From Thalia democratica (Eukaryota), in the NCBI GenBank assembly GCA_965202585.1, contig OZ241828.1, positions 76,198,001 to 76,262,000 on the forward strand: 64,000 bases of DNA, written 5' to 3'. The position numbers are program-made. Shown piece after piece: positions 33,001 to 39,000 of this stretch. The stretch's first letter is position 1. The number at the start of each line of letters is the position of its first letter.

Positions 33001-36000
33001 AAACTTAAGCAGATATATTCATTTACAGCATGTGACTGAATGGATAATTTTTTATTAATAGAACTTAAATGCAATAAAGTATTTTATTACTTTGTATGAT
33101 CACATTATGTAAAAAAAAAATTAATTTAGTTGCTTTTAATTAAAATAAATAGCATTTTTAGTATTATCAAAATTTGTGCCAAATATTTTTTTAATTAAGC
33201 AGTAATCTATATTTTTAAATATGTAAAAAATATATAACGTTTTTATTTATATTAACATACGGTTGTTTATAAAGACAAAAACCTATCTTAAACCTCACTA
33301 TGTTGTTTTCTTTTCATTTTTAAATAAGTTTAAGCCTAGTTTAGTTTTATACGATGTTTAAACAAAATTTCTTGTAAATTTAAGCTATTGAAAACTACTT
33401 TAATAAGCAAACTTTTATGATTAATTTGACTTAAATCTATTCTCGTTGTAATACTGTCTATTCATACTGTATATCAGTTTTAAAATATTTGTATGAAGTT
33501 TAATTTAATCATGAGTGTTTTTTTAATCGCACTCATAACTTTTGAGTTAAAATAAAATATAAATTATTAGATAAATAGCTAAACTTTTAAGAACAATTTA
33601 TTATACTGTAGAGTTGATTTTTCTCTAACCAGGAGACCTTAAAAAATGATTTCAAATATACATTTAAACCTTACAAGCTTAATCATTACGTGAAAAATAT
33701 ACTTTTTGTTAATATATATAAATGATACAGCAATAAAGCATATTATATATATGTACTAACAAACAAAATATATAACATAACTACATAGTAATCAAAATAA
33801 ATAAAACGAACTCACTTTACGACCAGTGTGTCGTTTTGCAGCTAGCGAATTTGACAATTTAAACTTTAAGATGTTATGTTGCGGCGACGCGTCGAAGTAC
33901 GAATCCCTATCCCCCACTGACAAGCCATTGTTCGAGTTGAAGCCAGAAGATTTAGAGGCGAATGAAGACGAGGTCATGGAAGCGGAACCAGTCATCGGTT
34001 GCGTTCCAGGAGACATTGTCGTCACAGTCTGGCTCCTGGCGTGCTGCTTCAGCAGAATGGACTTTCTGTCAGTCATACTACCGACTTCGTTACTATCATT
34101 TTTCACATCATCCACCATGCCCCGAGCCCCCTGTTGAATTACATTGAAATGCTTTAAAAAATGTAATAAATGATTAAATTTTTCCTTGTTTTAACTAAAA
34201 ATTAGACTGTATTTATATTTACTAGAACTTAAAAACAATAAGGTATTTTATTACTATACACGATCACATTATGAAAACAGAAAATAAATTAAATGCTTTC
34301 AATTAAAGTAAATACCATTTAAAGTATAATAAAAATTTCACCGAAGAGGTCACCGAAGCGGATCCAGTCGTCGGTATCTTTCCAGGAGACATTGTCGTCG
34401 CAGTCTGGTTCCTGGCGCGCTGCTTGAGCAGAATAGACTTGTTTTCAGTCATACTACCGACTTCGTTACTATCATTTTTCACATAATCCACCATGCCCCA
34501 TGCCCCCTGTTGAATAATATTGAAATTCATTAAAAATTTATAATAAATGATTAAATTTTTCCTTATTTTAAAACTAAATTAGACTGTTTTTTTTTCAAAA
34601 CATTTTATAAAGGTAAAATGACTGCAAAACAGATTTTGTTTGTTGCAAAATGCGAGTTTGTTGATAAAGTTTTTTATATGTAAGTGATTTTTTTTAATAT
34701 TAGAAACTTAGTTTTACTAAATCTTTAAAACTCATTTTGCCAAAGTTTATCTAAATAAAATTACTAATAGAAACAATTTTCAGTTAAAAAAACTTAAGCA
34801 GATATATTCCTTTACAGCATGTGACTAAATGGATAAATTTTTATTACTAGAAATTAAAAGCAATAAAGTATTTTAATACTACATATGATCACATTATGAA
34901 AACAAAAAATAAATTAAATGCTTTCAATTAAAGTAAATACTATTTATAGTATTATCAAAATTTATGCCAAATGTTTTTTTAATTAAGCAGTAATCTATAT
35001 TTTTAAATATGTAAAATAATATACAACTTTTTGACTTATATAAACATACGGGATAAAACCTACTTTAAACCTCACTATGTCGTTTTCTTTTCATTTACAA
35101 ATCAGTTTAAGCGTAGATTAATTTTATACGATGTTTAAACAAAACTTCTAGTAAATTTATGCTATTGAAAACTACTTTATGAAGCAAAATTTTATAATTT
35201 GTGTGACTGAAACTTATTCTCGTTGCAGCATTGTCTATTCATACTTAATATCAGTTTTAAAATATTTGTATGAAGTTTAATTTAATCATGAGTGTTTTTT
35301 TAATCGCACTCATAACTTTTGAGTTAAAATAAAGTATAAATTATTAGATAAATAGCTAAACTTTTAAGAACAATTTATTATACTGTAGAGTTGATTTTTC
35401 TCTAACCAGGAGACCTTAAAAAATGATTTCAAATATACATTTAAACCTTACAAGCTTAATCATTACGTGAAAAAATATACTTTTTGTTAATAGATATAAA
35501 TGATACAGCAATAAAGCATATTATATATATGTACTAACAAACAAAACATATAAAACTAACTGCATAGTAATCAAAATAAATAAAACGAACTCACTTTACG
35601 ACCAGTGTGTCGTTTTGCAGCTAGCGAATTTGACAATTTAAACTTTAAGATGTTATGTTGCGGCGACGCGTCGAAGTACGAATCCCTATCCCCCACTGAC
35701 AAGCCGTTGTTCGAGTTGAAGCCAGAAGAATTAGAGGCGAATGAAGACGAGGTCACCGAAGCGGAACCAGTCATCGGTTTCTTTCCAGGAGACATTGTCG
35801 TCACAATCTGGCTCCTAGCGCGCTGCTTGAGCAGAATGGACTTTCTGTCAGTCATACTACCGACTTCGTTACTATCATTTTTCACATCATCCACCATGCC
35901 CCATGCCCCCTGTTGAATTACATTGAAATGCTTTAAAAAATGTAATAAATGACCAAATTTTTCTTTGTTTTAACTAAAAATTAGACTGTTTTTTTTTAAT

Positions 36001-39000
36001 TTTCAAAACATTTCATAAAGGTAAAATGACTGCAAAACAGATTTTGTTTGTTGCAAAATGCGAGTTTGTTGATAAAGTTTTTTTATATTTAATTGGTTTT
36101 TTTAATACTAGAAATTTAATTTGAACTCATTTTGCCAAAATTTATCTGAACAAAATTATTGATAGAAACAATTTTCGGTTAAAAAAAAACTTAAGCAAAT
36201 ATATTTATTTACAGTATGTGACTGAATGGATAATTTTTTTATTACTAGAACTTAAAAACAATAAGGTATTTTATTACTATACACGATCACATTATGAAAA
36301 CAGAAAATAAATTAAATGCTTTCAATTAAAGTAAATACCATTTAAAGTATAATAAAAATTTCACCGAAAAGGTCACCGAAGCGGAACCAGTCATCGGTTG
36401 CGTTCCAGGAGACATTGTAGTTGCAGTCTGGTTCCTGGCGTGCTGCTTGAGCAGAATGGACTTTCTGTCAGTCATACTACCGACTTCGTTACTATCATTT
36501 TTCACATAATCCACCATGCCCCATGCCCCCTGTTGAATTACATTGAAATTCATTAAAAATTTATAATAAATGATTAAATTTTTCCTTATTTTAAAACTAA
36601 ATTAGACTGTTTCTTTTTTTTTCAAAACATTTTATACAGGTAAAATGACTGCAAAACAGATTTTGTTTGTTGCAAAATGCGAATTTGTTGATAAAGGTTT
36701 TTATATGTAAGTGATTTTTTTAAATATTAGAAACTTAGTTTTACTAAATTTTTAAAACTCATTTTGCCAAAGTTTATCTAAATATAATTACTAATAGAAA
36801 CAATTTTCAGTTAAAAAAAACTTAAGCAGATATATTCCTTTACAGCATGTGACTAAATGGATAAATTTTTATTACTAGAAATTAAAAGCAATAAAGTATT
36901 TTAATACTACATATGATCACATTATGAAAACAAAAAATAAATTAAATGCTTTCAATTAAAGTAAATACTATTTATAGTATTATCAAAATTTATGCCAAAT
37001 GTTTTTTTAATTAAGCAGTAATCTATATTTTTAAATATGTAAAATAATATACAACTTTTTGACTTATATAAACATACGGGACAAAACCTACTTTAAACCT
37101 CACTATGTCGTTTTCTTTTCATTTACAAATCAGTTTAAGCGTAGATTAATTTTATACGATGTTTAAACAAAACTTCTAGTAAATTTATGCTATTGAAAAC
37201 TACTTTATGAAGCAGATTTTATAATTTGTGTGACTGAAACTTATTCTCGTTGCAGCATTTTCTATTCATACTTAATATCAGTTTTAAAATATTTGTATGA
37301 AGTTTAATTTAATCATGAGTGTTTTTTTAATCGCACTCATAACTTTTGAGTTAAAATAAAGTAGAAATTATTAGATAAATAGCTAAACTTTTAAGAACAA
37401 TTTATTATACTATAGAGTTGATTTTTCTCTAACCAGGAGACCTTAAAAAATGATTTTAAATATACATTTAAACCTTACTAGGTTAATCATTACGAGAAAA
37501 AATATACTTTTTGTTAATAGATATAAATGATACAGCAATAAAGCATATTATATATATGTACTAACAAACAAAACATATAAAACTAACTGCATAGTAATCA
37601 AAATAAATAAAACGAACTCACTTTACGACCAGTGTGTCGTTTTGCAGCTAGCGAATTTGACAATTTAAACTTTAAGATGTCATGTTGCGGCGACGAGTCG
37701 AAGTACGAATCCCTATCCCCCACTGACAAGCCGTTGTTCGAGTTGAAGCCAGAAGAATTGGAGGCGAATGAAGACGAGGTCACCGAGGAAGACACCGAAG
37801 CGGGAACGGTCGTCGGTTGCGTTCCAGGAGACAGTTTCGTCACAGTCTGGTTCCTGGCGCGCTGCTTGAGCAGAATAGACTTCTTGTCAGTTGTGCTACC
37901 GACCTTGTTTCCATCTTGTTTCACATCATCCACCATGCCCCATGCACCCTGTTAATAACGTTGAAATGCATTAAAATTATAATAAATGATTAAAATTTTT
38001 CTCTTTTTTATTATAATTTACACTCTTTTTTTTTTGAAAACATTTTATAAAGGTAAAATGACTACAAAACTGATTTTGTTTGTTGCAAAAAGCACATTTG
38101 TTGATAATTTTTTTTATATATAATTGATTTTTAATATTAGAAAATAAGTCTATTGCATGTTTAAAGATAATTTTGCATAAATTTTTTTAAATAAAGTTAT
38201 ATAAAAAGTTTTAATGGAAACAGTTTAAACATAGTTTTTTAATAAGAAATTGTGAATACATAGATTATTTTAATTTTATTGCTTTAAGTTCAGAGCAATA
38301 AAATATTTGTTACACTTTATAACCTTTATTTTTAAATTATTTGACTTCTTTTGTAAAACTAATTGCCATTTGTGGTTATATCATAAAAGTTTGTGCCAAA
38401 AAAATTTTTATTAGGCATTAAATTTATTTTTTTTAAACTCTTAGCAAATTGTTTAATTTTTTTTAATCTATTGAACATACACGTGTATTTGTCAAAAAAC
38501 AACGGTTTTGAAAGTCTATGTATATTGAATATTTTAGAAGTTTGTTTTATAGATTTTACAATAAAAACACTTATTCTACACATTTTTAATCTAATTTTTT
38601 AAGTATATATAAATTTCCAAGTATTAAATTACTTTTAAAGCTTTTACTAGGTTCAAAGTACAAAATGTAAAATTAATGTCTTAAAGTTAAACAGTTGTTA
38701 AAACTGTACGTAGGTAAAAAAATAAGAATTTAGCTTGTAAAACTTTTTACAAGTTAAATCATAGGTTATTTTTTATATACAATCAAACAACTTACATAAA
38801 TAAATATTCCTAGTAGTAAAATTAAAACTAGCTTCTTCATGGTTTTTTTACGTATAAATGTCTGTATTAAATCAATATTTATACATGTGTTTATGTTCTT
38901 ATTCTTACGTTCTATTCTTTTTTTTTATACTAAATATTGAGCCTTAAAAAAAATCAGTAATAAATACATTCAAAAGTTTCAAAACAAAACATAATAAATG

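What the first reader, a model, noticed from the sequence alone, without database searches (positions are those of the whole stretch)
33816..37948. Array of five symmetric phase-0 exons, each starting with what looks like a signal-peptide cleavage site
Seen: A3-B2-A2-B1-A1 (327/165/315/165/315 nt), all multiples of three, all beginning GA(W/R)G-MVD(D/Y)VK. Full inclusion gives about 429 Ser/Thr-rich residues; any subset stays in frame. Because each copy starts with an A-x-G motif, they look like copies of the first mature-protein exon (inference), allowing mutually exclusive N-termini or variable-length mucin-like stalks. B exons have a weak donor; read-through ends in KFLLYFKWYLL* and would give short forms lacking the Cys-rich domain.
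Basis: partly seen in the sequence, partly recalled or inferred. Interest (0 to 1): 0.66.

Follow-up and report, generated by a model that had tools for sequence, protein, structure and literature searches.

The report
Tandemly duplicated chimeric exon array
Five look-alike exon copies on the minus strand are real and come from recent nested tandem duplication of one exon together with its introns, in a probable young secreted-protein gene; two of the five are truncated by-products, and nothing in the DNA shows which copies are used.

Summary
Five open, phase-0, multiple-of-three segments lie on the minus strand. All follow a cag acceptor and begin GA(W/R)GMVD(D/Y)VK. One correction: the 327-nt copy is A1 (37948-37622), not A3.

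They are not five independent exons. They are a nested tandem segmental duplication that includes the introns, a ~0.62-kb duplication inside a ~2.0-kb unit. The two 165-nt B copies are A copies cut off at a duplication breakpoint, and their GTGAAA donor sits in the junction.

The A exon is itself a chimera. Its ends match two decayed short exons in a flanking 7.8-kb inverted duplication. Its middle, about 68 codons, is 63% identical to the C-terminal tail of a DH-PH RhoGEF, the only convincing database relative.

A unique 15-codon signal-peptide-like first exon (38840-38796) and in-phase downstream exons make a young secreted-protein gene plausible. No homologue or transcript supports it.

The mucin-like reading fails on composition (S+T 24-27%, P 3-4%). 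No RNA docking or selector signal for mutually exclusive splicing was found.

Interest is modest. This is a new member of a known kind, tandem exon duplication.

The parts
38796..38840 (-). Candidate exon 1: ATG plus 15 codons, MKKLVLILLLGIFIY, donor gtaagt, phase 0. This is the n- and h-region of a signal peptide.
   Evidence: Read. It is the only hit of a (post hoc) signal-like-exon scan of both strands of the window, and it has no other copy in the window.
38876..38883 (-). TATAAATA, 43 nt upstream of the ATG. Possible TATA box.
   Evidence: Read. The octamer occurs 39 times on both strands of the window, so this is weak evidence.
37622..37948 (-). A1, 327 nt, 109 codons, cag|...|gtgagt.
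36365..36529 (-). B1, 165 nt. It is the 5' half of an A exon, truncated at a duplication junction; donor gtgaaa.
35595..35909 (-). A2, 315 nt, 105 codons.
34342..34506 (-). B2, 165 nt, a truncated copy like B1.
33816..34130 (-). A3, 315 nt, 105 codons. It starts GARG.
32989..38262 (.). Whole tandem array: ~2.0-kb units containing an inner ~0.62-kb duplication, introns included.
   Evidence: Self-BLAST: 34212-36114 vs 36236-38143 is 94.1% over 1921 nt; 32996-34214 vs 34785-35993 is 92.4%; 35750-36361 vs 36370-36991 is 87.7%.
36236..36361 (-). Intronic repeat R (~128 nt) abutting B1. Other copies lie at 36865-36991, 34837-34963, 34211-34338 and 33049-33175. R marks the breakpoint that truncates the B copies.
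29733..29889 (-). Candidate next exon C1, phase 0 in, acceptor ttttttttcag. It has 5 Cys up to a gtaaaa donor (phase 1 out), or 6 Cys if read on to the stop at 29700-29698.
   Evidence: Single copy. No family found. The exon model was drawn by eye.
28945..29100 (-). Candidate exon C2, phase 1 to 1, 4 Cys.
   Evidence: No PDB or Pfam match. Drawn by eye.
28639..28716 (-). Candidate exon C2b, phase 1 to 1.
   Evidence: Drawn by eye.
27306..27412 (-). Candidate last exon C3, phase 1 in. It encodes a Gly/Ser stretch, then a hydrophobic C-terminal tail, then a stop.
   Evidence: Drawn by eye.
22883..23032 (-). Decayed short paralogue of the exon in the left inverted arm. It lacks the RhoGEF-like middle and has 2 in-frame stops.
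48210..48359 (+). Decayed short paralogue in the right inverted arm. It is frameshifted with many stops, and its donor is changed to ttgagc.
19098..26903 (.). Left arm of a large inverted duplication. Its partner is 52118-42585, at 83-86% identity.
42585..52118 (.). Right arm of the inverted duplication.

Best explanation
The five segments are copies of one exon, the second exon of a lineage-restricted, probably secreted-protein gene on the minus strand. They were multiplied together with their introns by nested unequal-crossover-type tandem duplication.

Shown:
1. A ~0.62-kb block (intronic repeat R, upstream intron, 5' 165 nt of the exon) was duplicated in tandem. This produced a truncated copy (B) directly upstream of a full copy (A).
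2. A ~2.0-kb unit (B plus A plus introns) was then duplicated.
3. The 3' half of A1 and its downstream intron were recently homogenised with A2.
4. The exon is a chimera. Its first ~85 nt and last ~30 nt, with the flanking introns, are shared with two decayed short exons in a flanking inverted duplication. The ~200-nt middle is homologous to the C-terminal tail of a DH-PH RhoGEF.

Inferred:
- Exon 1 supplies MKKLVLILLLGIFIY, and whichever copy is spliced to it supplies GAWG, completing a signal peptide.
- The A module encodes a disordered, basic, moderately Ser-rich pro-region or linker that ends in KR-HTG-RK.
- The A copies, which have identical acceptors and strong GTGAGT donors, behave as in-frame cassette exons. 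The number of modules is then set by copy number and skipping.
- The B copies have a donor that is an accident of the junction. They are most likely skipped or are pseudo-exons.
- The gene continues into single-copy Cys-containing exons at 29.9-27.3 kb.

The confidence given is for the whole statement. The structural steps 1-4 alone I hold at about 0.85, and the existence of a functional gene at about even odds.
For: Duplication anatomy:
- Self-BLAST gives 94.1% over 1921 nt, 92.4% over 1222 nt and 87.7% over 627 nt between the units.

Mosaic ages:
- A1 vs A2: upstream intron 178/218 identical, 5' half of the exon 141/165, 3' half 147/150, downstream intron 820/829.
- A2 vs A3: 155/165, 148/150 and 749/817 for the 5' half, 3' half and downstream intron.

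B junction:
- The exon sequence is followed by the start of repeat R, with a repeated CTTCGGTGA motif that contains the GT.

Chimeric origin:
- phmmer of A2 against 1.84 billion representatives gave 3 hits. The only convincing one is P0001, E 4.3e-12.
- BLASTP of A3 vs P0001 gives 47/75 identities, E 1e-15, at residues 321-395 of 456.
- P0001 carries RhoGEF and PH domains.
- The window has no DH or PH exon.
- The arm copies align to the exon ends only.

Coding signal:
- The frame is open in 5 of 5 copies, against 0.3-0.5% of shuffles for A.
- pN/pS in the proposed frame is 0.42-0.62. In the four frames that contain stops it is 0.66-1.57.
- The 3' half of the exon is more conserved than the adjacent intron: A2-A3 show 2/150 vs 68/817 differences (Fisher p 0.0009), and A1-A3 show 5/150 vs 75/816 (p 0.015).

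Gene context:
- The signal-like first exon is unique in the window.
- Downstream exons with good acceptors lie in compatible phases.
- The A2 module is predicted mostly coil, pTM 0.17.
Against: - Two word-index searches with A1 and A3 found no protein relative, and Pfam found nothing for any exon.
- The tail of P0001 has no other relative, so the direction of transfer is inferred, not shown.
- For the Cys exon, the ESM Atlas gave recognition 1085, in the range of shuffled sequences, with a best score of 0.76. There was no PDB sequence match, and the fold model is only a pLDDT-69 helical hairpin.
- The A/B acceptors have poor polypyrimidine tracts (0.50-0.55 pyrimidine over 20 nt). The downstream exons have 0.60-0.70.
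- The 5' half of the exon is no better conserved than the intron (p 0.43).
- The high conservation of the 3' half could be gene conversion rather than selection, since A1/A2 clearly show such mosaicism (p 4e-13).
- The antisense frame is also open, with pN/pS 0.54-0.88.
- Both paralogues in the arms are decayed.
- The window is gene-poor and rich in duplications.
- The signal-exon scan criteria were chosen after seeing the exon.
- No transcript evidence of any kind was available.
Confidence: 0.5

Rival explanations
1. Non-functional relic. The array consists of young pseudo-exons in a duplication-rich, gene-poor region. The frames are open only because the copies are recent and partly derived from a real coding sequence (the RhoGEF tail). 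The signal-like exon and the downstream exons are coincidental or belong to a dead gene.
For: - No homologue exists apart from the RhoGEF tail.
- Only 3.8% of single substitutions would create a stop in A2 (36 of 945), so about 30 differences without a stop is unremarkable.
- The two paralogous exons in the arms are decayed.
- The Cys exon is not recognised as protein-like.
- The 5' half of the exon evolves like intron.
- The acceptors have weak pyrimidine tracts.
Against: - pN/pS is lowest in the proposed frame.
- The 3' half of the exon and its donor are better conserved than the intron.
- All 5 acceptors and all 3 GTGAGT donors are intact.
- The phase-compatible signal exon is unique in the window.
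- Downstream exons lie in compatible phases.
Confidence: 0.3
2. The array is a regulated cassette or mutually exclusive system that gives alternative N-termini or variable-length mucin-like stalks, with B read-through producing short forms.
For: - All copies are symmetric and phase 0, and all begin with GA(W/R)G.
- Duplicating exons together with their introns is the proposed route to mutually exclusive clusters (abstract of PMC6071210; abstract of PMC9013439).
Against: - The composition is not mucin-like.
- The B donor is a junction by-product.
- Duplex energies between each copy's upstream intron and the unique part of intron 1 lie within about 1 SD of shuffles. For example, A2 gives -43.1 against -39.3 +/- 4.1.
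- The inverted repeats found are AT-rich, 71-94% complementary and not collinear.
- Introns of 211-1092 nt and lengths that are multiples of three impose no exclusivity.
Confidence: 0.15
3. Assembly artefact: a false tandem expansion from haplotypes or mis-joined reads.
For: A1 and A2 are 98-99% identical over the 3' half of the exon and 829 nt of intron.
Against: - The same two units are only 82-86% identical in the adjoining upstream intron and 5' half of the exon.
- A3's unit is 91-92% identical to the others and lacks ~240 nt.
- The window has no N.
- The nested structure, with B copies carrying a specific junction, occurs twice with differences between the two occurrences.
Confidence: 0.05

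Closest known systems
Tandem exon duplications and mutually exclusive exon clusters (Ivanov and Pervouchine: PMC9013439 and PMC6071210, abstracts read; the Dscam-type examples are recalled)
   Same: Neighbouring homologous exons of similar length were produced by genomic duplication that also copied the adjacent intron.
   Different: - Here the copies are very young (82-99% identical, introns included) and two are truncated.
- All lengths are multiples of three, so co-inclusion is possible.
- No competing RNA structure was detected.
- No expression data exist.
Exon duplication enlarging secreted peptide precursors, for example nasonin-2 and nasonin-6 of Nasonia (PMC2853521, passages read)
   Same: A gene with a signal peptide has a module, encoded by a single exon, that is repeated through exon duplication with symmetric intron phases.
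   Different: - There the repeated exon encodes the Cys-rich defensin-like domain, separated by phase-1 introns. Here it encodes a disordered pro-region or linker with phase-0 introns.
- Here the duplicated exon still carries the end of the signal peptide.
Signal peptide, propeptide, dibasic site, Cys-rich mature peptide precursors of venom and antimicrobial peptides (seen only in the search listing; the architecture is recalled)
   Same: Exon 1 plus GAWG forms a signal peptide. The A module ends in KR..RK immediately before a Cys-containing exon.
   Different: The Cys part has no detectable family or confident fold. Processing at the dibasic site is pure inference.
Dbl-family RhoGEF (DH-PH), represented by P0001
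   Same: About 68-75 residues of each A module are 58-64% identical (69% in the phmmer hit) to the C-terminal tail of P0001.
   Different: The window has no DH or PH sequence. The shared piece is a tail fragment embedded between unrelated exon ends, so this locus is a derivative of that family and not a member of it.

Membership tests
Tandem exon duplication | Two or more adjacent homologous exon-like segments on one strand, each with its own acceptor and donor. | tested here: met
   There are five copies. All have a cag acceptor. A copies have a gtgagt donor and B copies gtgaaa.
Tandem exon duplication | The copies lie inside one transcription unit, with no first exon or promoter copied along with them. 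| tested here: inconclusive
   Exon 1 and the downstream Cys exon are single copy, which fits one unit. Transcription itself was not testable.
Mutually exclusive exon cluster | [quoted passage not shown] | not testable with these tools
   This needs cDNA or RNA-seq.
Mutually exclusive exon cluster | A mechanism that enforces exclusivity: competing docking/selector pairings, frame disruption on co-inclusion, or steric limits. | tested here: not met
   Duplex energies lie within about 1 SD of shuffles for 5 of 5 copies. All lengths are multiples of three. Introns are 211-1092 nt (coordinates). The duplex test was crude and covered only the unique part of intron 1.
Mucin-like (PTS) stalk | Composition dominated by Ser, Thr and Pro. 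The criterion is recalled: usually well above 40%. | tested here: not met
   S+T is 24-27% and P 3-4% in all five copies.
Classical N-terminal signal peptide | A basic n-region, a hydrophobic h-region, and small residues at -3 and -1. | tested here: met
   MKK, then LVLILLLGIFIY, then GAWG (A at -3, G at -1), judged by inspection. No predictor was available and cleavage is not testable.
Dbl-family RhoGEF | A DH domain followed by a PH domain. | tested here: not met
   tblastn of P0001 against the window matches only residues 321-397, at the five copies. Pfam finds nothing in the A exons.
Propeptide / Cys-rich secreted peptide precursor | A dibasic processing site between the pro-region and the mature part. 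| tested here: met
   KRHTGRK ends 3 of 3 A modules. Its use by a convertase is inferred.
Propeptide / Cys-rich secreted peptide precursor | A mature domain with a recognisable disulphide-rich fold or family. | tested here: inconclusive
   There was no Pfam, PDB or Atlas match. The AF2 single-sequence model is a helical hairpin with pLDDT 69.

The most novel reading that the evidence does not exclude
This is a newborn modular gene caught in the act. A fragment of an intracellular RhoGEF tail was captured in frame into the first post-signal exon of a secreted-protein gene. That chimeric exon was then amplified into a 3+2 cassette array. Every copy can rebuild the signal-peptidase site when spliced to exon 1, so copy number and exon skipping together tune the length or the N-terminus of a secreted, possibly membrane-anchored, Cys-containing protein.
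Probability: 0.15. Interest if true: 0.55.

Novelty: new member of a known kind. Interest (0 to 1): 0.32.

Why it matters
If the locus is expressed, it is a clean and very young example of how unequal crossing-over and fragment capture build a modular exon array. The intermediate stages are still readable in one locus: truncated copies, an accidental donor site, gene-conversion mosaics and decayed paralogues.

It also carries a practical warning for annotation. An all-inclusive 429-codon model would look like a repetitive 'mucin', although its repeat derives from a cytoplasmic RhoGEF tail and two of the five copies are breakpoint artefacts.

If it is not expressed, it is ordinary duplication debris.

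Tried and rejected
- Pfam. Of 11 ORFs including the three A exons and the Cys exons, none passed a curated cut-off; 2 had sub-threshold matches. I then scanned 56 more ORFs. These came from the 121 ORFs with GC >= 0.30 listed, themselves drawn from 367 ORFs of >= 40 aa. The remaining listed ORFs, mostly other frames of the same islands, were not scanned. None of the 56 passed a cut-off; 3 were sub-threshold.
- Rfam at gathering threshold and ARAGORN found nothing in the window.
- The search for homologous proteins found nothing with A1 at near lengths or A3 at longer lengths. With the tail of P0001 it found only P0001 itself.
- P0002 and P0003 (E 1e-6 and 9e-5, five matched stretches each) are long internally repetitive proteins. 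I treated them as compositional matches and did not follow them up.
- ESM Atlas on P0001 returned only generic RhoGEF clusters and gave no clue to the organism. On the Cys exon it returned nothing useful.
- The cluster look-up for P0001 could not be made, so its names and relatives stay unknown.
- The AF2 models of the Cys exon and of A2 are low confidence. I ran no fold search on them because such models give meaningless matches.
- The docking/selector search was negative.
- The plus-strand ORFs across the A copies (110-114 aa) were considered and rejected as antisense by-products. The RhoGEF homology is in the minus-strand frame.
- Not done: the joined (spliced) protein model was not searched or folded; every exon was handled on its own. 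No SignalP, O-glycosylation or GPI predictor was available.
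Full report
**Observation**

The window is AT-rich (GC 0.19-0.30 in 2-kb steps), has no N, and I do not take it for human. The five segments exist on the minus strand:

| Copy | Coordinates | Length |
|---|---|---|
| A1 | 37948-37622 | 327 nt |
| B1 | 36529-36365 | 165 nt |
| A2 | 35909-35595 | 315 nt |
| B2 | 34506-34342 | 165 nt |
| A3 | 34130-33816 | 315 nt |

- Each copy follows a cag acceptor and starts in phase 0 with GA(W/R)GMVD(D/Y)VK.
- A copies end GRK|gtgagt. 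B copies end S|gtgaaa and, if read through, give VKFLLYFKWYLL and a stop.
- The total is 429 codons.
- The A frame stays open in only 15-23 of 5000 shuffles, and the B frame in 231-238 of 5000.

**How the array arose**

Self-BLAST shows that the introns are duplicated with the exons:
- 34212-36114 vs 36236-38143: 94.1% over 1921 nt.
- 32996-34214 vs 34785-35993: 92.4%.
- A smaller block of ~0.62 kb (intronic repeat R, upstream intron, first 165 nt of the exon) recurs four times. For example, 35750-36361 vs 36370-36991 is 87.7%.

B is therefore not a second exon type. It is the 5' half of A, cut at the breakpoint of the 0.62-kb duplication. After ...GCTTCGGTGACCT the sequence continues with the start of R. 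A repeated CTTCGGTGA motif in that junction supplies the GT of the 'weak donor'.

Block-wise identities are mosaic:

| Pair | Upstream intron | 5' half of exon | 3' half of exon | Downstream intron |
|---|---|---|---|---|
| A1 vs A2 | 178/218 | 141/165 | 147/150 | 820/829 |
| A2 vs A3 | not aligned reliably | 155/165 | 148/150 | 749/817 |

This pattern indicates several rounds of duplication plus recent homogenisation. It argues against a simple assembly expansion.

**The exon is a chimera**

- phmmer of A2 against 1.84 billion representatives gave three hits. P0002 and P0003 are long repetitive proteins, and I regard them as compositional matches.
- P0001 (456 aa, E 4.3e-12) has RhoGEF and PH domains. 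It matches A only in its C-terminal tail: 47/75 identities with A3, residues 321-395.
- tblastn of P0001 finds the five copies and no DH or PH exon in the window.
- The window contains a large inverted duplication, 19098-26903 vs 52118-42585, at 83-86% identity. Each arm holds a short relative of the exon with its upstream intron and donor region, but without the RhoGEF-like middle. Both are decayed: two stops in the left arm, a frameshift and many stops in the right arm.
- The simplest reading is that a ~200-nt piece of a RhoGEF tail entered a short ancestral exon in frame. The direction of transfer is inferred. The tail of P0001 has no other relative in the searchable set, and its cluster could not be inspected.

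**Is there a gene?**

For:
- A 15-codon ATG exon, MKKLVLILLLGIFIY|gtaagt, lies 847 nt upstream in phase 0, with TATAAATA 43 nt before the ATG.
- It is the only hit of a signal-like-exon scan on both strands. The criteria were chosen post hoc. The octamer occurs 39 times in the window.
- With GAWG it makes a textbook n-h-c signal peptide.
- Downstream, single-copy exon candidates with good acceptors follow in compatible phases: C1 29889-29733, C2 29100-28945, C2b 28716-28639 and C3 27412-27306. C3 ends in a hydrophobic tail. This model was drawn by eye.
- pN/pS is lowest in the proposed frame (0.42-0.62).
- The 3' half of the exon is better conserved than its intron (p 0.0009 and 0.015).

Against:
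- No homologue was found for any exon.
- The Cys exon scores like a shuffled sequence in the Atlas.
- The A/B acceptors have weak pyrimidine tracts.
- The 5' half of the exon evolves like intron.
- Gene conversion could mimic the constraint seen in the 3' half.
- The antisense frame is also open.
- The paralogues in the arms are dead.

I put a functional gene at roughly even odds.

**Function of the module**

- A2 is predicted mostly coil (pTM 0.17).
- The module is basic (K+R 14-15 vs D+E 8), with S+T 24-27% and P 3-4%. That is not a mucin composition.
- Each A module ends KRHTGRK. Its role as a pro-region or linker with a dibasic processing site before the Cys part is inference.

**Splicing**

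- Nothing enforces mutual exclusivity. All lengths are multiples of three, and the introns are 211-1092 nt.
- Duplexes between each copy's upstream intron and the unique part of intron 1 are no stronger than shuffles.
- The inverted repeats found are AT-rich and not collinear.
- The literature links tandem exon duplication to mutually exclusive choice and to duplicated intronic structures (abstracts of PMC9013439 and PMC6071210). Exon duplication is also known to enlarge secreted peptide precursors (passages of PMC2853521).

**Limits**

- The spliced (joined) model was not searched or folded; exons were treated one by one.
- No transcript, read-level or population data could be consulted.
- Paper supplements were not needed and not seen.

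**Verdict**

The feature is real and correctly observed. It is best explained as a young nested tandem duplication of a chimeric exon in a possibly functional secreted-protein gene. It is a new member of a known kind, and of modest interest.

Noticed in passing
window 19098-26903 vs 52118-42585; also 16454-16945 vs 54859-54360, and 18724-19022 vs 54247-53946: A large imperfect inverted duplication (83-86% identity over at least 7.8 kb, with further inverted matches outside) flanks a ~15.7-kb spacer. The spacer holds the exon array and the candidate downstream exons. The A-like pseudo-exons in the arms point away from the centre.
   Followed up: partly
window 51369-56041 vs 57356-61660: A direct duplication with a ~5.5-6 kb period (74-90% identity in blocks). 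It adds a third copy of a ~0.7-kb GC-richer element also present at 19100-19860.
   Followed up: no
window 5315-5542 (-): A 76-aa ORF with a sub-threshold Pfam match to TMEM238 (E 5.8e-5, 23.7 bits against a cut-off of 27), in a GC island. It may be an exon of a small membrane protein gene.
   Followed up: no
window 1801-2420: The GC-richest island of the window (0.46), with ORFs open in several frames on both strands. One is a Ser-rich 105-aa ORF at 2086-2400 (-) with only a sub-threshold New_glue match.
   Followed up: no
window 62985-63299 (-) and 63403-63639 (-): ORFs rich in acidic residues and Ser (105 and 79 aa) in GC islands near the window end, with no Pfam match. They may be exons of an unrelated gene.
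   Followed up: no
window 32538-32704 vs 32718-32883; 7448-7628 vs 7579-7755: Two small local tandem repeats, at 81% and 86% identity.
   Followed up: no
window 27306-27412 (-): The candidate terminal exon encodes a Gly/Ser stretch followed by a 16-residue hydrophobic C-terminus and a stop. AATAAA lies about 100 nt downstream. It resembles a GPI-anchor or tail-anchor signal. No predictor was available.
   Followed up: partly
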